Source: Escherichia phage SF. Taken from it: a stretch of DNA of 64,000 nucleotides. Positions 4,639 through 55,466 of this stretch are shown here, in pieces (position 1 is the stretch's first letter; each line of letters begins with the position of its first letter). The notes under the pieces are model-generated. The model did not search any database, was not told where the DNA came from, and worked only from the letters and a program-made list of their open reading frames with translations. The translations under genes were made by a program, and so were the position numbers. The DNA is taken from the sequence record MH359124, one strand, 5' to 3'.

Positions 4639-5036
4639 TGTCTAATATCAATAAACTTTATTCAGATATCGACCCAGAAATGCGTATGGATTGGAACAAG
4701 GACGTTGCTCGTTCTGTAGGACTTCGTTCTATTAAAAACAGTCTTCTTGGCATAGTGACAACTAGAAAAGGCTCACGCCCCTTCGACCCTGAATTTGGAT
4801 GCGATTTGGTCGACGAACTTTTCGAGAACATGACACCACTTACAGCCGATACGATTGAGCGTAATATCCAGGCAGCTGTTCGTAACTATGAGCCACGCAT
4901 CGACAAACTTTCTGTAAGTGTAACGCCAGTATATGATGACTATACGGTTATAGTAGAGATTAGATTTTCGGTCGTAGACAACCCTGACGATATTGAACAA
5001 ATTAAACTTCAGTTAGCGTCAAGCAATAGAGTGTAA
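4638..5036 (+). CDS. 25: gp25 baseplate wedge subunit (gpW/lysozyme-like fold)
   Basis: 132-aa ORF (T4 gp25 is 132 aa), translationally coupled to gp26 (ATGA overlap). Confidence 0.9.
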   Translation: MSNINKLYSDIDPEMRMDWNKDVARSVGLRSIKNSLLGIVTTRKGSRPFDPEFGCDLVDELFENMTPLTADTIERNIQAAVRNYEPRIDKLSVSVTPVYDDYTVIVEIRFSVVDNPDDIEQIKLQLASSNRV

Positions 5037-5116
5037 TGCTTCAAGGCAACCTATGTATAATGGTTTTAGGTCCTTCCGATACAGCCGGGAGATTATTAGT
5101 TAAAAGAGAGAACATT

Positions 5117-5530
5117 ATGAAGCTGGAAGATTTACAGGAAGAGTTAGACGCAGACTTAGCTATTGATATGACAAAGTTGCAATATGAGACGGCGAATAAT
5201 GTTAAGTTATACAGCAAATGGCTACGTAAGCACTCATTTATTCGTAAAGAAATGTTGCGTATAGAGACTCAGAAGAAAACTGCTCTAAAAGCAAGATTAG
5301 ACTACTACTCGGGACGAGGTGACGGTGATGAATTCAGTATGGACCGATACGAGAAATCTGAAATGAAAACTGTCCTGGCTGCCGATAAAGATGTACTTAA
5401 AATAGAGACTACTTTACAATACTGGGGAATTTTACTTGAGTTCTGTAGTGGTGCACTTGACGCAGTTAAGTCTCGTAGTTTTGCACTTAAACATATCCAG
5501 GATATGCGAGAATTTGAAGCGGGGCAATAA
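5117..5530 (+). CDS. uvsY: UvsY recombination mediator
   Basis: Translation from internal ATG 5117 gives MKLEDLQEEL...KLQYE..NNV.LYSKWL...DYYSGRGDGDEFSMDRYEKSEMKTVL, near-identical to T4 UvsY (137 aa); RBS AGAGAG upstream. Confidence 0.92.
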   Translation: MKLEDLQEELDADLAIDMTKLQYETANNVKLYSKWLRKHSFIRKEMLRIETQKKTALKARLDYYSGRGDGDEFSMDRYEKSEMKTVLAADKDVLKIETTLQYWGILLEFCSGALDAVKSRSFALKHIQDMREFEAGQ

Positions 5531-47288: not shown

Positions 47289-47362
47289 GGCCCTGTAGCT
47301 CAACGGTTAGCAGCAGTCCCCTCATAAGGGAAAGGTTACCAGTTCGAATCTGGTCTGGGTCA
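47289..47362 (+). tRNA. tRNA with anticodon CAT (Met/Ile2 type)
   Basis: Manual cloverleaf: acceptor GGCCCTG/CTGGGTC (one mismatch), D-arm GCTC-AACGGTTAG-CAGC, anticodon loop CTCATAA, T-arm ACCAG-TTCGAAT-CTGGT; 6 nt before the next tRNA. Stems are imperfect. Confidence 0.6.
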
Positions 47363-47368
47363 TATATT

Positions 47369-47445
<77 letters not shown>

Positions 47446-50536: not shown

Positions 50537-51133
50537 ATGCGAAACCAAAATAATGATATTGACTCGATGTTCGAAGAGTTCCGAAATAAGGTAAATCCAC
50601 CTACGTCTTTAGTTGATTCATTACGATATGTTGCAACTGGACGTAAATGGTACTGGTCGTCTTCTTATGAGACAACTGAATATGCAAATAACCGAAAATC
50701 TTTATTAGCCCCAGGTATTATGATTCATGATATCGGAGCTATTGCTAAACTAGTTGCAGACCATGATATTAGATTCACCGATTTCGTTGCTCCTACGTGG
50801 TCTGTTTGTTGTTTAAACACTGAATGGGAATATATCAGCGAACGCTCTGAAGATTATTATGGTTTTAGAGACAAGCTTTTAAGGTCTAACATGTTTTATA
50901 TTGATACAGAAGTTCTGGTCAATAATAAAAAATACTATTTCACTTTAATAGTCGATTCTGAAACTATGTATGAAGGCAAGCCTTTGCTTAAAAGAGTTGA
51001 TGCTTTAAGTGCTATTGATGCGCTTTATGAAACCATGGTTGTTAGTCCTAATTTCACTAACAATTTAATCCTTGAGCAATTTATTATGGAATGTAGAGAA
51101 TATGTCAAAGCCAACCCTATACATGCCAAGTAA
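50537..51133 (+). CDS. hypothetical protein (199 aa)
   Basis: ATG 50537 with RBS AAGGAG; C-terminal region contains the FIMECRE junction motif. Confidence 0.65.
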   Translation: MRNQNNDIDSMFEEFRNKVNPPTSLVDSLRYVATGRKWYWSSSYETTEYANNRKSLLAPGIMIHDIGAIAKLVADHDIRFTDFVAPTWSVCCLNTEWEYISERSEDYYGFRDKLLRSNMFYIDTEVLVNNKKYYFTLIVDSETMYEGKPLLKRVDALSAIDALYETMVVSPNFTNNLILEQFIMECREYVKANPIHAK

Positions 51134-51497
51134 GCCCTGGGCGTATGAATACAAGCGTAAATTAATCCCAAATGAAGTACTATTTGGCCCTATTTTAGCT
51201 TTAGCATTTTTAATCTTTATGATTATAGGAGCTGTTTTAGATTCTAGTGAAGTTATATCGTCTGATGCAGTGTTTTTACTTATTATAGTCGGGTCGTTTA
51301 TTGTACCATTTTTATTAATGCCTATTAACTGGGTAGGATATTGGCACCAAGGCCGTCATCACAGAGCCCGATTAAGAGAATGGAAAGTTCAGTGCGCAAA
51401 AGCCCAAGCTCAGTATGATGAAGCTGTTAAAAAGTACGAATATGAAGAAGCTATGGAATTCGTTAAGGAAATAAGATGCAAAAGCCTCAACTCTTAA
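51102..51497 (+). CDS. small membrane protein (2 TM), ECR-family paralog
   Basis: Start at 51102 (alternative 51123); TM segments ILALAFLIFMIIGAVL and VFLLIIVGSFIVPFLL; C-terminus EFVKEIRCK. Confidence 0.6.
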   Translation: MSKPTLYMPSKPWAYEYKRKLIPNEVLFGPILALAFLIFMIIGAVLDSSEVISSDAVFLLIIVGSFIVPFLLMPINWVGYWHQGRHHRARLREWKVQCAKAQAQYDEAVKKYEYEEAMEFVKEIRCKSLNS

Positions 51498-51835
51498 CCG
51501 TATGGCCTTCTCTTGGTGAGAACATTCTAATTTTTATTATGAGTATTGGCGTGGGATTTGCCTTTGGATTAGTTGGATTTCTTATTGACGGCGTTGTGTT
51601 AGGATTTATAGGGAACACTGGTGGATTCACAGACCAATGGCAGGACTTACGGTATACCCAAGCCTTTGCATCCATCGCATCATTTTGTACTGTAGTCTAT
51701 TTTTACTATGATTTTATAAACCATAACAAGAAAAATAAAAAGGTTTACGCTTCTCAAATGATTAGTTATAATGAACTCCTAGCTAGACGTGAAAATGAAA
51801 CAATAGAAAACTTTATTAAGGAATGTAGAAAATGA
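51476..51835 (+). CDS. small membrane protein (2 TM), ECR-family paralog
   Basis: TM segments; C-terminus ENFIKECRK; coupled to the downstream gene. Confidence 0.65.
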   Translation: MQKPQLLTVWPSLGENILIFIMSIGVGFAFGLVGFLIDGVVLGFIGNTGGFTDQWQDLRYTQAFASIASFCTVVYFYYDFINHNKKNKKVYASQMISYNELLARRENETIENFIKECRK

Positions 51836-52137
51836 GTAAGATTATTGAAATTAAAGTACCAGAGTTTAATGATGCCAAATCCGCTTCAGATGCAATTTAT
51901 AAACTTCTGAATCAAGCTGAACGTATCGAAGAAGAAGCAACAAAGATCGCAGACCAATATGCCGTATCATTTTCTGTAGGTGATTATGGTAGCGGTCGTA
52001 CTTATTATCCTAAGGGTGAAATCGTATCCCAGTGGATGAAAAATGAAATTGAAAATAATGGTGGCGATGTTAAGCGTGAAGGTAATGGTTACGTTATTAC
52101 TGAAGGTGCTTGGGTTTCGTCTTCTGCGTTGTGCTAA
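51832..52137 (+). CDS. small protein, member 1 of a tandem paralog triplet (C-terminus GAWVSSSALC)
   Basis: 101 aa; shares C-terminal G-W-[VI]-[SA]-S-S-x-x-C and upstream spacer GCTAAGGAA with the next two ORFs. Confidence 0.65.
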   Translation: MSKIIEIKVPEFNDAKSASDAIYKLLNQAERIEEEATKIADQYAVSFSVGDYGSGRTYYPKGEIVSQWMKNEIENNGGDVKREGNGYVITEGAWVSSSALC

Positions 52138-52146
52138 GGAACCACT

Positions 52147-52419
52147 ATGTCTAAAGAACAAACCGAACTGGCTGAAGCCGTAGCAAAAATCTATGCAGCT
52201 ATTGAGGCTGCCAAAGAAATTGCTGATAAACAAAACACAACATTCGACTTGTATCCAGCTTATGGTATGGGTGGAACATATCATTCACCCGGACAGCTTA
52301 AAGCCGATCTTGAACGTTGTACAAAAAACGGCTATGCTGAATGGGCTGACGTTTACCAATACGACTACAACCTGAGCCTCGAAACTGGTGGTTGGATCGC
52401 ATCTTCTCACACTTGCTAA
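52147..52419 (+). CDS. small protein, member 2 of the tandem paralog triplet (C-terminus GGWIASSHTC)
   Basis: 90 aa; conserved C-terminus and RBS context. Confidence 0.65.
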   Translation: MSKEQTELAEAVAKIYAAIEAAKEIADKQNTTFDLYPAYGMGGTYHSPGQLKADLERCTKNGYAEWADVYQYDYNLSLETGGWIASSHTC

Positions 52420-52428
52420 GGAAACCAT

Positions 52429-52626
52429 ATGTCTCGTGAATTAGATTGTGCTGTACGTACTGCAGTAGCTGCCCTGGAAAACCTGTTCCAAATTGCAACA
52501 GAAGAACGCGAAGAAGTTACATTATGGATTGAAGATAACGCAGGTCTGAATCTCCAGGACGCGATCTCATTATCCCACAATAGTATCACTGTTCAAGGCT
52601 GGGTATCGTCTAGTTATTCTTGCTAA
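52429..52626 (+). CDS. small protein, member 3 of the tandem paralog triplet (C-terminus QGWVSSSYSC)
   Basis: 65 aa; conserved C-terminus and RBS context. Confidence 0.65.
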   Translation: MSRELDCAVRTAVAALENLFQIATEEREEVTLWIEDNAGLNLQDAISLSHNSITVQGWVSSSYSC

Positions 52627-52630
52627 AACA

Positions 52631-52670
52631 GTTTACAACAAGATAGGGCTATGTTATAGTAGTCCTATCA
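52631..52670 (+). promoter_or_regulatory. early promoter with stem-loop (PeSL)
   Basis: GTTTACAacaagaTAGGGCTAtgtTATAGTAGTCCTAtc. Confidence 0.65.
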
Positions 52671-52688
52671 AATTAAATGGAGTCCACA

Positions 52689-52928
52689 ATGATTTATTAC
52701 GAAAGTATTGGAACCGAAGTGGTTGCTAAAACCATTACTCGTGAAAAGTTTGCAAAGATATTCGATATGCGTTATAAAAAATCTGAACACAAAGGCATTC
52801 GATTCGAAGATGCGCACTGTACAATTTGCCCTTATAATGAAGACATAAATGGTACAATCGTTCCATTGGTAGAGGCTTCACATGATGACCTCTGGGATGA
52901 ATATAATATCGCATGTCGCGAAATTTAA
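52689..52928 (+). CDS. hypothetical protein
   Basis: ATG 52689 with RBS GGAG; PeSL-type promoter upstream. Confidence 0.55.
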   Translation: MIYYESIGTEVVAKTITREKFAKIFDMRYKKSEHKGIRFEDAHCTICPYNEDINGTIVPLVEASHDDLWDEYNIACREI

Positions 52929-52953: not shown

Positions 52954-53910
52954 ATGATGTTAGTTATTGGTTCTCGTGCACTTCACTATCATGGACTTAT
53001 TGATTCTAATGCTATCAAAAATAGTGACTGGGACTTTATTGCAGACCAAGGTTCTTGGAATGCATTCAAAAATCAAATGATGGGTGTATATGTTCATCAA
53101 GATAACCCTGATGTCCAAGTTTTCAAATGCTTCCATAATGGACGCGAAACTCATTTTGAAGCATATATTGTTCCGGCAATCACTAATGTCCGTGAATTAG
53201 TCGGTGAACTCACTCCTGAAGATTTCACATCTTCTTACGACCTTTTAAAATACGCCAAGAAAAATTTGACCAAAGACCGTTTGAACGGGTTTTACTGGGC
53301 AACTCCTGAGATATGTCTTGCAATTAAGATGTCTCATCGTTTCAAGAAAAATAATCCATTCTTTTTAAAGACTATGAACCATATTCAGTATCTTCGTGGT
53401 AAAGGTGTTACACTGAACGACGAACTTACTGAAATTATGCTGAAACGCCAGAAAGAAACCTTGAACTATGCTCACCCAGTTCTTGACACTTCTAAAAGTG
53501 CGTTCTTTAAAGATGACATCTATACATATGACCATGATACTATTCATGAAGCCATTGCACTAACAGACCGCCCGGCTTATACATTTTACATGAAAGATGG
53601 TTCTGAAGTCATGACCTCACGCGAGAAGTTTGAATCATTACCAGAAATGGTAAAATTGGCTGGTGTATACGAAGAATCATGTGTACTAGCATTAGAACGT
53701 TCTCAGATTCCTAACGACTTTAAAATTAACCCTGAAGCCAGTTTTATGATGGCATTGGAAAAAGTCTGTACAAGCATCACCTCTGGTTGGTTCCGTGAGT
53801 ATGCCTGGGAAAACTATAGCAAAGTAGTAAGTATGTACCAAAGCTTAGGACATGATGATTACGTCAAACGTTTCAAACAAAATTTCCATATGGTAAAACC
53901 TTTCAAATAA
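52954..53910 (+). CDS. 318-aa protein with putative Pol-beta-type nucleotidyltransferase motif
   Basis: RBS GAGGAA; N-terminus MMLVIGSRALHYHGLIDSNAIKNSDWDFIA fits h-G-S...D-x-D, with a possible third carboxylate in HFEAYIV. Motif-level inference only. Confidence 0.7.
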   Translation: MMLVIGSRALHYHGLIDSNAIKNSDWDFIADQGSWNAFKNQMMGVYVHQDNPDVQVFKCFHNGRETHFEAYIVPAITNVRELVGELTPEDFTSSYDLLKYAKKNLTKDRLNGFYWATPEICLAIKMSHRFKKNNPFFLKTMNHIQYLRGKGVTLNDELTEIMLKRQKETLNYAHPVLDTSKSAFFKDDIYTYDHDTIHEAIALTDRPAYTFYMKDGSEVMTSREKFESLPEMVKLAGVYEESCVLALERSQIPNDFKINPEASFMMALEKVCTSITSGWFREYAWENYSKVVSMYQSLGHDDYVKRFKQNFHMVKPFK

Positions 53911-53922
53911 CTTCACAAAACT

Positions 53923-53962
53923 GTTTACATAATTATAGGGACTATGTTATAGTAGTCCTATT
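53923..53962 (+). promoter_or_regulatory. early promoter with stem-loop (PeSL)
   Basis: GTTTACAtaattaTAGGGACTAtgtTATAGTAGTCCTAtt. Confidence 0.65.
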
Positions 53963-53981
53963 AAAACATGAGGAGAATATT

Positions 53982-54287
53982 ATGAAATTAACAGAAACCA
54001 ATCGAATCGGTCTTTTAACAATATTTGCATCACCTTTTTACGCAGCTCTTTCTGTTGCAGTATTACAAAAGGCCTACGATATGGATGGAGTTACTGGTTT
54101 TGTATTCTTATCGCCGTTTTTGCTATTCGTTGGAGCATTGTTATTATACGCCACGACTAGTTTCGACCATAATGTCTGGGTCAATTATAAATGTAAATTG
54201 TCTGAAGAAGAACACGCAGAAGCTCGTAAAAAAGCTATTGAATCTACCAATCTAGAAAATTTCATTAAAGAATGTCGAGGAAAATAA
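53982..54287 (+). CDS. small membrane protein (2 TM), ECR-family paralog
   Basis: RBS GAGGAG; TM segments; C-terminus ENFIKECRGK. Confidence 0.65.
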   Translation: MKLTETNRIGLLTIFASPFYAALSVAVLQKAYDMDGVTGFVFLSPFLLFVGALLLYATTSFDHNVWVNYKCKLSEEEHAEARKKAIESTNLENFIKECRGK

Positions 54288-54288
54288 T

Positions 54289-54975
54289 ATGAATAGTTCT
54301 AAAGTGTTTAATAGTCAAGCTCGTGCAGTAGGTGGTTTTGCTCATGCGATTAAAAACGAGCAGATTAAAAACGAGCCTATGTTCTTTAACTGCGATTTGA
54401 ATTTTGCTTTTGATAATGGCGGTCCAATTACTCGTAGCTTTATCCAAAATCTTCCTGACGATTGGAAAGACTCGGATGTAGTATTTGATTCACGAGTCCA
54501 CATGCTGATGCCTGGTTGGTATCCTGCTATTCCTGGATATCACCATGATGATGTTCCTCGCCCTGATATTCCAGTTGGTCAACACTTTATTACTGCAGGA
54601 CAACCTGATTATGACAATCCTCGCTATTTGTCTGAACATATTCTTGGTCTTGTTAACGCTGATGTGTGTCCTACTCATTTTGCAACAGGAGCTGCAGAGT
54701 TCAGTCAGATTCCTGATGGCGAACTTATCTATCGCCAGTGGCACAAAGAAGTCCTCGAAAAAATTGAAAAAGGCGAACTAGAGAAATGGGAAGCTCCAGA
54801 TCGTACTCTTCTTCAGTTTGATTGGCAAACATGGCACACTGGTTCTCGTGCAATTAGTAATGGATGGCGTTGGTTCGGACGTGTATCTCGTAATACAGGC
54901 CGAGTTAAAAAGATTACCAATGAAATTCGTGTCAATGCTCAAGTTTATCTGGAATTCCCTATGGAAGGCTGGTAA
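54289..54975 (+). CDS. 228-aa His/Asp/Trp-rich protein (possible metal-binding enzyme)
   Basis: RBS GAGGAA; motifs PGYHHDD and CPTHF; no confident family assignment. Confidence 0.65.
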   Translation: MNSSKVFNSQARAVGGFAHAIKNEQIKNEPMFFNCDLNFAFDNGGPITRSFIQNLPDDWKDSDVVFDSRVHMLMPGWYPAIPGYHHDDVPRPDIPVGQHFITAGQPDYDNPRYLSEHILGLVNADVCPTHFATGAAEFSQIPDGELIYRQWHKEVLEKIEKGELEKWEAPDRTLLQFDWQTWHTGSRAISNGWRWFGRVSRNTGRVKKITNEIRVNAQVYLEFPMEGW

Positions 54976-55466
54976 TGATACATAAAATTCACTGGACAAA
55001 CATGGACGATGGCGACGAAGGTATTTCATATTATTCTATAGATTGGACAGGATGTCCATCCTACTTAGTGAAACATATTTGCCAAGAATTTAAAATCGAC
55101 CAGCCAGCAGGTATTATCGTGAACAGATACATTAATGGATATCAACCTATCGATGAAGTAATACGAACAACTCAAGCTGAGCTTGAAAGGTTTTTCAATA
55201 AGTGTCAATGGATAACAGGATGGATTATATTTGTACCGTCTATATGGTTTTTCAGTACTAAGGTGAGTTCTTTCGGTTTTGTTGATATTATTGCTATCTT
55301 ATTAGCATCTAGTATCATAAGTGTTGTTGGTGGCATCATTGGCGGCGGTACCGCCGCCATCATTATTAATCTTATTAAAAGTAGTTTACAAGAACATAAA
55401 GACAAGATAAAGGCCAAGAATAATGAAGTTGAACGTTTTATTACCGAATGCAGGAATTTGAGATGA
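54975..55466 (+). CDS. membrane protein with N-terminal soluble domain and 2 TM, ECR-family paralog
   Basis: C-terminus ERFITECRNLR; TM segments WIIFVPSIWFF and IIAILLASSIISVVGGIIGG; ATGA coupling. Confidence 0.65.
   Translation: MIHKIHWTNMDDGDEGISYYSIDWTGCPSYLVKHICQEFKIDQPAGIIVNRYINGYQPIDEVIRTTQAELERFFNKCQWITGWIIFVPSIWFFSTKVSSFGFVDIIAILLASSIISVVGGIIGGGTAAIIINLIKSSLQEHKDKIKAKNNEVERFITECRNLR

What the first reader, a model, noticed from the sequence alone, without database searches (positions are those of the whole stretch)
52954..53910. 318-aa protein with a Pol-beta-type nucleotidyltransferase signature
The N-terminus MMLVIGSRALHYHGLIDSNAIKNSDWDFIA fits the h-G-S ... D-x-D arrangement of minimal/CD-NTase-like nucleotidyltransferases, with a candidate third carboxylate in HFEAYIV. 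A phage NTase in an accessory island next to the tRNA locus could act in tRNA/RNA repair, nucleotide-signal interference or protein nucleotidylation. I do not recognise it as a known T4 gene.
Basis: inference. Interest (0 to 1): 0.7.

Follow-up and report, generated by a model that had tools for sequence, protein, structure and literature searches.

The report
Phage nucleotidyltransferase with Cys-tailed partner proteins
The 318-residue protein does have a nucleotidyltransferase fold with an intact active site, and it always travels with a previously unremarked family of small acidic proteins that all end in the same tryptophan-serine-serine-cysteine tail, so it looks like an uncharacterised two-part phage system.

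Summary

Pfam files it only as DUF7277 + DUF7275. Residues about 170-318, the most conserved part, match no solved fold.

The main new result is a partner family. In 77 of 83 related loci, 1-5 small acidic ORFs lie just upstream on the same strand, all ending W-x-x-S-S-x-x-C-stop. The window has three (51832-52626). The link also holds when searched from the small proteins. A shorter sister subfamily (~250 aa, actinophages) lacks these proteins and lacks several long-form residues. It sits next to tRNA genes instead.

Best reading (inferred, confidence about 0.3): the enzyme docks the tails and nucleotidylates a tail serine. The main rival is a MenT-like or repair enzyme acting on tRNA 3' ends, with the small proteins as regulators.

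Verdict: new variant of a known kind; function untested.

The parts
52954..53910 (+). Gene for the 318-aa nucleotidyltransferase-like protein. It is the ortholog of RB69ORF134c and belongs to the long subfamily of DUF7277+DUF7275 (PHROG 2141).
   Evidence: ORF. It is 97% nt identical to RB69ORF134c. Pfam gives DUF7277 E 1e-27 and DUF7275 E 5e-79. PHROG 2141 matches at E 2e-150.
52957..53256 (+). N-terminal catalytic domain (aa 2-101, DUF7277), a Pol-beta nucleotidyltransferase beta-sheet core.
52969..52974 (+). Codons for G6-S7, the hG[GS] motif.
   Evidence: Invariant in alignment A1 and across the loci. It lies at the strand-helix junction of the model.
53026..53034 (+). Codons for D25-W-D27, the [DE]h[DE] metal-binding carboxylates.
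   Evidence: Invariant. It lies at the start of strand 26-31.
53158..53160 (+). Codon for E69, the third catalytic carboxylate (h-E-h on a strand).
   Evidence: Invariant in A1. It is E, or D in four loci, across the loci. It lies within strand 64-73.
53311..53868 (+). DUF7275 (aa 120-305), an all-helical domain and the most conserved part of the protein. About the first 65 residues correspond to the helical lobe of MenT-like NTases. The remainder has no solved-structure counterpart.
53326..53337 (+). Codons K125-M-S-H128 (KMSHR). K125 and H128 are kept in both subfamilies. K125 is a candidate NTP-binding lysine, equivalent to MenT motif III.
   Evidence: The equivalence to MenT motif III is inference only (MenT motifs from PMC10435456).
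53533..53547 (+). Codons H194-D195-T-I-H198 (DHDxxH), kept in both subfamilies. With E240/E241 and E248/R249 this may form a second polar or metal site.
   Evidence: Conservation. An HD or PHP fold is not supported.
53767..53769 (+). Codon C272, within KVCTSITSGWFRE. Together with R129, H174, S277 and R281 it is kept only in the long subfamily, the one that has tail-protein partners.
51832..52137 (+). Small acidic tail protein 1 (101 aa, pI 4.7). The middle motif is DYGSGRTYYPKG and the C-terminus is GAWVSSSALC-stop (tail codons 52111-52134).
   Evidence: PHROG 899 matches at E 2e-22.
52147..52419 (+). Small acidic tail protein 2 (90 aa, pI 4.7). The middle motif is AYGMGGTY and the C-terminus is GGWIASSHTC-stop (tail codons 52393-52416). 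It is the ortholog of RB69ORF137c.
   Evidence: PHROG 899 matches at E 2e-18.
52429..52626 (+). Small acidic tail protein 3 (65 aa, pI 4.2). The C-terminus is QGWVSSSYSC-stop (tail codons 52600-52623). It is the ortholog of RB69ORF136c.
   Evidence: PHROG 4882 matches at E 8e-37.
52677..52928 (+). 83-aa ORF between the tail-protein genes and the enzyme gene (PHROG 3723, function unknown). It is found only in the T4-like clade (14 loci), so it is probably not a core part.
51744..51772 (+). Promoter-like site (TTTACG-17-TATAAT) upstream of the first tail-protein gene.
   Evidence: Consensus scan only; the region's promoter-like site count did not exceed shuffled controls.
52632..52660 (+). Promoter-like site (TTTACA-17-TG-TATAGT) upstream of the 83-aa ORF and the enzyme gene. 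No + strand terminator-like site lies between 51300 and 54400.
   Evidence: Consensus scan only.

Best explanation
The gene encodes an active Pol-beta-fold nucleotidyltransferase of a phage-specific family (DUF7277 catalytic core plus DUF7275 helical domain). In this long subfamily the enzyme forms a two-component module with small acidic proteins encoded just upstream; the window has three. The bodies of these proteins vary, but all end in the tail G-x-W-h-S-S-S-x-x-C-COOH.

Proposed mechanism: the highly conserved DUF7275 domain docks this tail. The G6-S7 / D25 / D27 / E69 site binds Mg-NTP. An NMP is transferred to a tail serine hydroxyl with release of PPi, that is, O-nucleotidylation of the small proteins. 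This changes their activity or primes a second chemical step.

Shown: the ORF, the fold, the intact catalytic motifs, and the near-obligate reciprocal gene linkage and its subfamily specificity. Inferred: physical docking of the tail, serine as the acceptor, which nucleotide is used, and the downstream role of the modified proteins.
For: Fold and active site:
- Model pLDDT is 93.
- The catalytic residues are invariant.

Linkage to the tail proteins:
- 215 ORFs end in the W..SS..C-stop tail, out of 11,647 ORFs in 83 long-subfamily loci.
- 207 of them (96%) lie on the same strand within 3.5 kb upstream, in 77 of 83 loci, with 1-5 per locus.
- The 64-kb window has only 3 such ORFs out of 420, and all abut the gene.
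- Other neighbouring genes are not conserved beyond single clades.

Reciprocal tests:
- 23 of 24 IMG/VR stretches with the independent YGMGGTYY motif lie on contigs that carry the enzyme gene. The remaining one could not be tested.
- Three small proteins taken from metagenomes are followed by a DUF7277/7275 gene in every readable place.

Negative control and covariation:
- The short subfamily has 1 chance hit in 7,979 ORFs.
- It also lacks the long-form residues R129, H174, C272, S277 and R281.
- L156-158 carry the long-form motifs and do have a tail ORF.

Chemistry:
- The tail invariants are W, S-S and a terminal C, so two hydroxyls are always on offer.
- ANT(2'') and LnuA, both among the best fold matches, nucleotidylate hydroxyl groups (established knowledge).
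- Pol-beta-fold enzymes that modify an adjacent or partner small protein are known: MntA-HepT, GlnD-PII and CitX-CitD (own knowledge, not tested here).
Against: - Gene linkage does not say which partner acts on which.
- The single best structural match is a tRNA 3'-end NTase (MenT1), whose antitoxin is also a small protein encoded upstream (PMC10435456).
- The short subfamily works without tail proteins and clusters with tRNA genes, so the ancestral substrate may be RNA.
- RNA-repair genes (Rnl1, PNKP, RNA ligases) lie nearby in several lineages.
- The spacing between W, S-S and C varies (W-x-x-S-S-x-x-C versus W-x-x-S-S-C). That fits a docking tag at least as well as a precise acceptor site.
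- The small proteins are very acidic (median pI 4.4). This would also suit nucleic-acid mimics or inhibitors.
Confidence: 0.32

Rival explanations
1. The protein is a tRNA/RNA 3'-end nucleotidyltransferase. It would either extend host tRNA CCA ends as MenT does (host shut-off) or rebuild damaged 3' ends of phage or host tRNAs (repair, a functional analogue of CCA-adding or RlaP enzymes). The small Cys-tailed acidic proteins would be regulators, specificity adaptors or nucleic-acid-mimicking inhibitors that dock through their tail.
For: - In the short sister subfamily, 31 of 45 loci have tRNA genes within 8 kb and 17 of 45 within 1.5 kb. This holds in 7 of 13 lineages defined at 60% identity. 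One example is Gordonia phage Engineer, with a tRNA array 1.2 kb downstream.
- In the long subfamily, 33 of 84 loci have tRNA genes within 8 kb, including the window at 5.5 kb.
- Rnl1 and PNKP lie 4-6 kb upstream in the jumbo-phage clade.
- An RNA ligase lies 1 kb upstream in Streptomyces phage Beuffert. An RNA ligase plus a LigT gene are present in L113.
- The acidic small proteins (pI 4.4) could mimic RNA.
Against: - In the long subfamily, tRNA proximity is confined to 4 of 16 lineages and is usually 4-7 kb away, which is consistent with inherited synteny.
- There is no sequence match to DUF1814/AbiEii, RlaP or CCA-adding families.
- The enzymes are mildly acidic (median pI 6.1, net charge -6).
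- No genome-wide control for tRNA proximity could be run.
- This reading does not explain why the tail keeps two invariant serines and a terminal cysteine.
Confidence: 0.3
2. The module is a toxin-antitoxin-like pair carried by the phage. The NTase would be a growth-arresting toxin and the upstream small proteins would be proteinaceous antitoxins that block or inactivate it, as MenA1 does for MenT1.
For: - MenA1 is a 68-aa protein encoded directly upstream of MenT1, and it blocks the active site (PMC10435456).
- Here too the small genes lie upstream on the same strand.
Against: - Up to five divergent paralogues per genome share one invariant tail, which is unusual for antitoxins.
- The short subfamily has no partner at all.
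- MenA1 binds through a helix and W47, not through a C-terminal tail.
- No PADLOC or AbiE model matches.
- These are virulent phages, where an addiction-type TA logic has no obvious role.
Confidence: 0.1
3. The protein is a small-molecule or nucleotide-signal nucleotidyltransferase. It would be an ANT/Lnu-like modifier of a metabolite or antibiotic, or a synthase or modifier of a signalling nucleotide (anti-CBASS or anti-Thoeris type). The small proteins would be unrelated neighbours.
Against: - This reading leaves the 96% positional linkage, the reciprocal linkage and the subfamily covariation with the tail proteins unexplained.
Confidence: 0.08
4. The linkage with the small proteins is only inherited gene order in a hypervariable early region, with no functional coupling.
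For: Both lie in the accessory e-to-tRNA region of T4-like phages, which holds many small ORFs of unknown function.
Against: - The linkage persists down to about 40% enzyme identity. It holds in jumbo phages, 150-kb Klebsiella-type phages, Aeromonas phages and environmental contigs where no other neighbour is conserved.
- It is reciprocal.
- It tracks enzyme subfamily and subfamily-specific residues.
Confidence: 0.05

Closest known systems
MenT1/MenT3(TglT)/MenT4 nucleotidyltransferase toxins of M. tuberculosis (DUF1814/AbiEii family)
   Different: Identity is only 8-11% and there is no Pfam DUF1814 match. The phage protein has about 150 extra C-terminal helical residues with no counterpart. 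Its partners are unrelated to MenA proteins, occur in several copies and are defined by a C-terminal W..SS..C tail. Activity on tRNA is untested.
ANT(2'')-Ia (AadB) and LnuA/LinB antibiotic O-nucleotidyltransferases
   Different: There is no sequence-family match. The phage gene sits in a virulent-phage context, not a resistance element. The C-terminal domain is much larger. The presumed acceptor is a protein tail rather than an antibiotic.
Pol-beta-fold enzymes that modify a partner protein: MntA-HepT (polyadenylylation of Tyr), GlnD-PII (uridylylation of Tyr), CitX/MdcG-acyl carrier protein (phosphodiester-linked prosthetic group on Ser). Cited from own knowledge.
   Same: The logic is the same: an NTase-fold enzyme paired with a small protein substrate that is often encoded next to it. 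GlnD also combines the NTase with a second, helical, metal-dependent domain.
   Different: No sequence or specific structural match was found here. An HD fold for DUF7275 is not supported. The acceptor motif (a C-terminal W..SS..C tail) and the multi-paralogue substrate set have no equivalent.
RlaP (RNA-ligase-associated Pol-beta NTase) and class II CCA-adding enzymes of phages
   Same: These are phage-encoded Pol-beta NTases found near RNA ligase, PNKP or tRNA genes and thought to rebuild RNA ends (PMC7824862). Here Rnl1/PNKP, RNA ligases or tRNA arrays lie nearby in several lineages.
   Different: There is no Pfam match to either family. RNA-ligase proximity is limited to certain clades (12 of 84 long-subfamily loci). 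Neither known family has Cys-tailed partner proteins.
Pfam DUF7277 + DUF7275 / PHROG 2141 (long) and PHROG 6944 (short)
   Same: This is the family the protein actually belongs to. Homologs occur in 732 of 50,697 phage records.
   Different: The family has no assigned function. A few depositors label members 'nucleotidyltransferase'. No paper in the searchable library mentions these DUFs or the gene.

Membership tests
Pol-beta nucleotidyltransferase superfamily | hG[GS] motif at the junction of the first strand and the following helix | tested here: met
   I5-G6-S7 is invariant. Strand 2-5 is followed by helix 6-12.
Pol-beta nucleotidyltransferase superfamily | [DE]h[DE]h on the second strand and a third carboxylate (h[DE]h) on a later strand | tested here: met
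   D25-W-D27-F lies at strand 26-31. F68-E69-A70 lies in strand 64-73. All are invariant, with E/D at position 69. The GS-to-DxD spacing is 17 residues, longer than the classical 9-13.
Pol-beta nucleotidyltransferase superfamily | Fold similarity to solved members | tested here: met
Pol-beta nucleotidyltransferase superfamily | NTP-dependent nucleotidyl transfer activity | not testable with these tools
   This needs an enzyme assay.
MenT / AbiEii (DUF1814) toxins | Sequence membership in DUF1814 (four motifs, including the family-specific motif IV) | tested here: not met
   hmmscan against Pfam at E up to 10 returned only DUF7275 and DUF7277. There is no PADLOC AbiE model hit.
MenT / AbiEii (DUF1814) toxins | Bilobed fold, with the NTase lobe followed by a helical lobe carrying a catalytic Lys and Asp | tested here: inconclusive
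MenT / AbiEii (DUF1814) toxins | Toxicity neutralised by a cognate antitoxin; addition of nucleotides to tRNA 3' ends | not testable with these tools
   Small upstream genes exist, but they are unrelated to MenA proteins and their role is unknown.
CD-NTase / cGAS-like | cGAS/DncV-type fold and a match to CD-NTase models | tested here: not met
RlaP and class II CCA-adding enzymes | Sequence match to the family model | tested here: not met
RlaP and class II CCA-adding enzymes | Conserved association with RNA ligase or tRNA genes | tested here: inconclusive
   Rnl1 is near 12 of 84 long and 3 of 45 short loci. PNKP is near 10 long and 5 short loci. tRNA genes lie within 8 kb in 33 of 84 long and 31 of 45 short loci. 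There was no whole-genome null.
HD / PHP phosphoesterase (for the DUF7275 half) | HD or PHP fold and profile match | tested here: not met
DUF7277 + DUF7275 (PHROG 2141) | Profile matches above the curated thresholds for both domains | tested here: met
   97 bits and 265 bits against cut-offs of 27. PHROG 2141 matches full length at E 2e-150.
RiPP / lanthipeptide-type maturation system | Recognisable precursor-modifying enzymes (LanB/LanM/LanKC/LanC, YcaO, radical SAM, cysteine decarboxylase) and a leader-core precursor | tested here: not met
   No such domains are present in the enzyme or in conserved neighbours. The small proteins are 51-173 aa, with a conserved C-terminal tag rather than a variable core. 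Only the Ser...Cys-COOH topology is reminiscent.

The most novel reading that the evidence does not exclude
The module may be a new kind of phage protein- or peptide-maturation system. The NTase domain would activate a tail serine by O-nucleotidylation. The unique DUF7275 domain would then catalyse a second step on the activated tail. One option is beta-elimination to dehydroalanine followed by attack of the C-terminal cysteine thiol, giving a thioether ring of the lanthionine/AviCys Ser-x-x-Cys-COOH type. Another is transfer of the tail onto a target. The result would be a set of 1-5 differently bodied, covalently modified effector proteins per phage. My evidence does not exclude this and does not test it.
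Probability: 0.07. Interest if true: 0.9.

Novelty: new variant of a known kind. Interest (0 to 1): 0.62.

Why it matters
- The family is common. tblastn finds it in 732 of 50,697 deposited phage genomes, spanning Escherichia, Acinetobacter, Aeromonas, Pseudomonas, Vibrio, Klebsiella, Gordonia and Streptomyces phages. It also has more than 2,600 protein clusters in metagenomes. Even so, it is filed only as two DUFs.
- Showing that it is a catalytically intact NTase gives it a testable biochemical identity.
- The finding that one subfamily is tied to a multi-copy family of small proteins with an invariant W-x-x-S-S-x-x-C tail gives a concrete experiment. One can test whether the enzyme modifies those tails, binds them, or is controlled by them.
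- If the tails are substrates, this would be a new protein-nucleotidylation system in well-studied T4-like phages such as RB69. It would also define a new terminal tag for a family of probable host-takeover or counter-defence effectors.
- If the target is tRNA, it would be the first phage-borne MenT-like enzyme, with a new type of protein regulator.

Tried and rejected
2. A C243-C272 metal or disulfide site. Rejected as a universal feature: C243 is Tyr or Ser in L074-L084, which still have tail proteins. C272 remains specific to the long subfamily.
3. A conserved downstream partner gene. Rejected. The similar-sized genes in the window (228 aa), L004 (227 aa) and L002 (212 aa) are unrelated. 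The downstream families differ by clade: PHROG 1843, a Metallophos gene, and an unannotated family.
4. A link to the RB69 arabinosyl-5-hydroxycytosine pathway. Rejected: that pathway is gp45-55, and ORF134c is not mentioned.
5. CD-NTase or a known defence/anti-defence model. No support.
6. A sequence relative among solved structures. None for the enzyme, the small proteins or the 228-aa neighbour.
7. A search of viral contigs with the small-protein alignment failed because no stretch was conserved enough. A single-protein search found only near-identical loci. I replaced these with an IUPAC DNA pattern for YGMGGTYY.
8. Foldseek against AFDB50 was not available on the machine.
10. Literature searches for the DUF numbers, the gene name and phage NTase/C-terminal-cysteine terms found nothing on this family.
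11. Larger tail-bearing proteins (125-173 aa) were scanned for extra domains. None was found.

Full report
**Observation.** The window comes from an RB69-like T4-type phage (Mosigvirus). The segment 52954-53910 is 97% identical in DNA to RB69ORF134c, a 'hypothetical protein' lying between e.3 and e.2/nudE/e. All neighbouring genes are on the same strand and closely packed. The only promoter-like sites on the + strand that fall in intergenic positions are at 51744, 52632 and 53924. There is no + strand terminator-like site between 51300 and 54400 (consensus matches only).

**Is it a nucleotidyltransferase?** Sequence libraries say only DUF7277 (aa 2-101) plus DUF7275 (aa 120-305) and PHROG 2141. 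There are no NCBIfam, PADLOC or PDB sequence relatives. A search of the 5.8-billion-protein collection found 2,212 homologous clusters. In an alignment of 55 of them (47-75% identity), G6, S7, A9, D25, D27 and E69 are invariant.

An AlphaFold2 model built on that alignment is confident (pLDDT 93.1, pTM 0.87). It places G6-S7 at the strand-to-helix junction, D25-x-D27 at the start of the next strand, and F-E69-A inside a later strand. That is the canonical Pol-beta arrangement.

**The partner family.** I fetched 80 IMG/VR loci encoding relatives (40-98% identity). To these I added RB69 and two contexts from the metagenome and genome assemblies (a 341-kb jumbo-phage contig and a Klebsiella phage), then clustered all neighbouring ORFs.

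Only one family is shared across clades. It consists of small ORFs just upstream on the same strand. The members have a median length of 86 aa and are acidic (median pI 4.4, net charge -9). They have an N-terminal amphipathic helix and a middle YGMGGTYYP or DYGSGRTYYPKG motif. Their extreme C-terminus is G-x-W-h-S-S-S-x-x-C-stop or a shorter W-x-x-S-S-C-stop. In the aligned set, W, S-S and the terminal Cys are the invariant residues.

The counts, are:
- 215 such ORFs among 11,647 stop-to-stop ORFs in 83 loci (1.32 Mb).
- 207 of them (96%) lie within 3.5 kb upstream on the same strand.
- 77 of 83 loci have at least one, with 1-5 per locus.
- Of the loci without one, some have too little upstream sequence. 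Four carry a copy 6.5 kb downstream on the other strand. About three truly lack one.
- In the 64-kb window only 3 of 420 ORFs carry the tail. They are the three consecutive genes 51832-52137, 52147-52419 and 52429-52626, directly upstream of the enzyme gene.
- They belong to PHROGs 899 and 4882, both of unknown function.

**Reciprocal tests and a negative control.** An IUPAC DNA pattern for the independent YGMGGTYY motif found 24 stretches in IMG/VR. Of these, 17 show the enzyme gene just downstream. Another 6 have less than 1.2 kb of stored downstream sequence but come from contigs already known to carry the gene. One could not be tested.

A profile search with the small proteins found only 'hypothetical' proteins. 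Three of them, looked up in independent metagenome assemblies, are followed immediately by a DUF7277/DUF7275 gene in every readable place. By tblastn, tail protein 2 occurs in 279 phage records, all within the genera that carry the enzyme.

The negative control is a sister subfamily. It is shorter (about 250 aa; PHROG 6944; Gordonia and Streptomyces phages and soil contigs) and keeps GS, DxD, E, K125, H128, HDxxH, EE and ALER. In 45 such loci (0.68 Mb, 7,979 ORFs) the tail pattern occurs once, on the wrong strand and far away. These short enzymes also lack R129, H174, C272, S277 and R281, which are invariant in the long form. Three loci that first looked intermediate (L156-158) turned out to have the long-form motifs, and they do have a tail ORF just upstream. 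The tail proteins therefore co-vary with a specific set of enzyme residues in DUF7275. This is the best available hint that the tail contacts that domain.

**The RNA connection.** The short subfamily is often right next to tRNA genes. tRNA genes lie within 8 kb in 31 of 45 loci and within 1.5 kb in 17 of 45, across 7 of 13 lineages defined at 60% identity. One example is Gordonia phage Engineer.

RNA-repair genes recur nearby:
- an RNA ligase 1 kb upstream in Streptomyces phage Beuffert
- an RNA ligase plus a 2'-5' ligase/2H gene in a 695-kb contig
- Rnl1 and PNKP 4-6 kb upstream in the jumbo-phage clade of the long subfamily

In the long subfamily, tRNA proximity is confined to 4 of 16 lineages and is usually 4-7 kb away. 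The window fits this, with tRNA-Met and tRNA-Arg at 47289-47445. I could not compute a genome-wide null, so this evidence is moderate. Together with MenT as the nearest fold, it keeps a tRNA 3'-end function as a serious rival.

**Mechanism.** Four things are shown: the NTase fold, the intact catalytic triad, the near-obligate and reciprocal linkage with the Cys-tailed proteins, and the subfamily covariation.

My preferred inference is this. DUF7275 docks the invariant tail, and the catalytic site transfers an NMP from an NTP to one of the two invariant serines. ANT(2'') and LnuA perform the same chemistry on hydroxyl groups. MntA-HepT, GlnD-PII and CitX-ACP follow the same enzyme-plus-small-protein logic; these three comparisons rest on my own knowledge and were not tested here. 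Variable bodies carrying one invariant terminal tag, alongside a single conserved enzyme, is the pattern expected for tagged substrates. I give this 0.32.

The main rival (0.30) is a MenT-like or repair-type tRNA 3'-end NTase, with the acidic small proteins as regulators, adaptors or RNA mimics. A toxin-antitoxin reading gets 0.10, a small-molecule or nucleotide-signal NTase 0.08, and mere synteny 0.05.

The most novel reading still open (about 0.07) is a maturation system. Serine activation would be followed by a second reaction in DUF7275, for example formation of a thioether ring with the C-terminal cysteine.

**Comparison with the known, and verdict.** The protein is a member of the Pol-beta NTase superfamily, and every feature testable here was met. 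It is a member of DUF7277/DUF7275. By sequence it is not a member of DUF1814/MenT, RlaP, the CCA-adding enzymes or the CD-NTases. It is not part of the RB69 DNA-arabinosylation pathway. No paper in the searchable library mentions the family or the tail proteins.

I rate it a new variant of a known kind: a known catalytic fold with a novel conserved domain and a novel, tightly linked partner family. Its function is still to be determined experimentally.

Noticed in passing
window 51476-51835, 53982-54287, 54975-55466 (possibly also 51072-51497): Several predicted membrane proteins flanking the module are T4 e.2/e.3-type. They end in a shared C-terminal motif: ...NFIKECRK, ...NFIKECRGK, ...RFITECRNLR. 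The motif also appears in related phages (...SFIEECRK in L015). This is a second family in the region defined by a conserved C-terminal tag that contains a cysteine.
   Followed up: no
window 54289-54975: A 228-aa ORF (PHROG 1843, function unknown, no Pfam or PDB relative) lies one or two genes downstream of the enzyme gene in 25 loci, including distant Aeromonas phages. It is rich in His/Asp/Trp (YHHDD, WHTG). In other clades the same position is taken by a calcineurin-like phosphoesterase (Metallophos) or by an unannotated ~230-aa family.
   Followed up: partly
L001 (RB69) 4875-5181 versus window 51832-52137: In the RB69 reference record the first tail-protein gene is split into two short CDS, ORF139c and ORF138c. 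In the window and in L005 it is one intact 101-aa ORF. This is probably a frameshift or sequencing error in the old RB69 record.
   Followed up: no
L004, L159-L165 (Klebsiella-type ~150-kb phages); L002 and relatives (jumbo phages): In clades outside the T4-like phages, the module is flanked repeatedly by a Metallophos phosphoesterase. This holds in 20 of 84 long-subfamily loci and in all three L156-158 loci. In the Klebsiella-type clade a SIR2-domain gene also lies 3-4 kb downstream.
   Followed up: partly
L005 2381-2474 (98%-identical Mosigvirus contig): ARAGORN calls a 94-nt 'tRNA-Stop (anticodon tta)' about 530 nt downstream of tRNA-Arg in the near-identical contig. No such call was made in the window, where only tRNA-Met and tRNA-Arg were found.
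   Followed up: no
P0054 (308 aa, from a 3-kb assembly); L162: One database protein joins a DUF1190-type lipoprotein N-terminus to DUF7275 in place of the NTase domain. One skin-metagenome contig (L162) has the enzyme gene split, with its two halves on opposite strands. Both look like assembly or recombination artefacts rather than real architectures.
   Followed up: no
window 53924-53970: Directly after the enzyme gene's stop codon there is a T4-early-like promoter match (TTTACA-18-TG-TATAGT). It overlaps an imperfect inverted repeat (TATAGGGACTATG...TAGTAGTCCTAT) upstream of the next gene.
   Followed up: no
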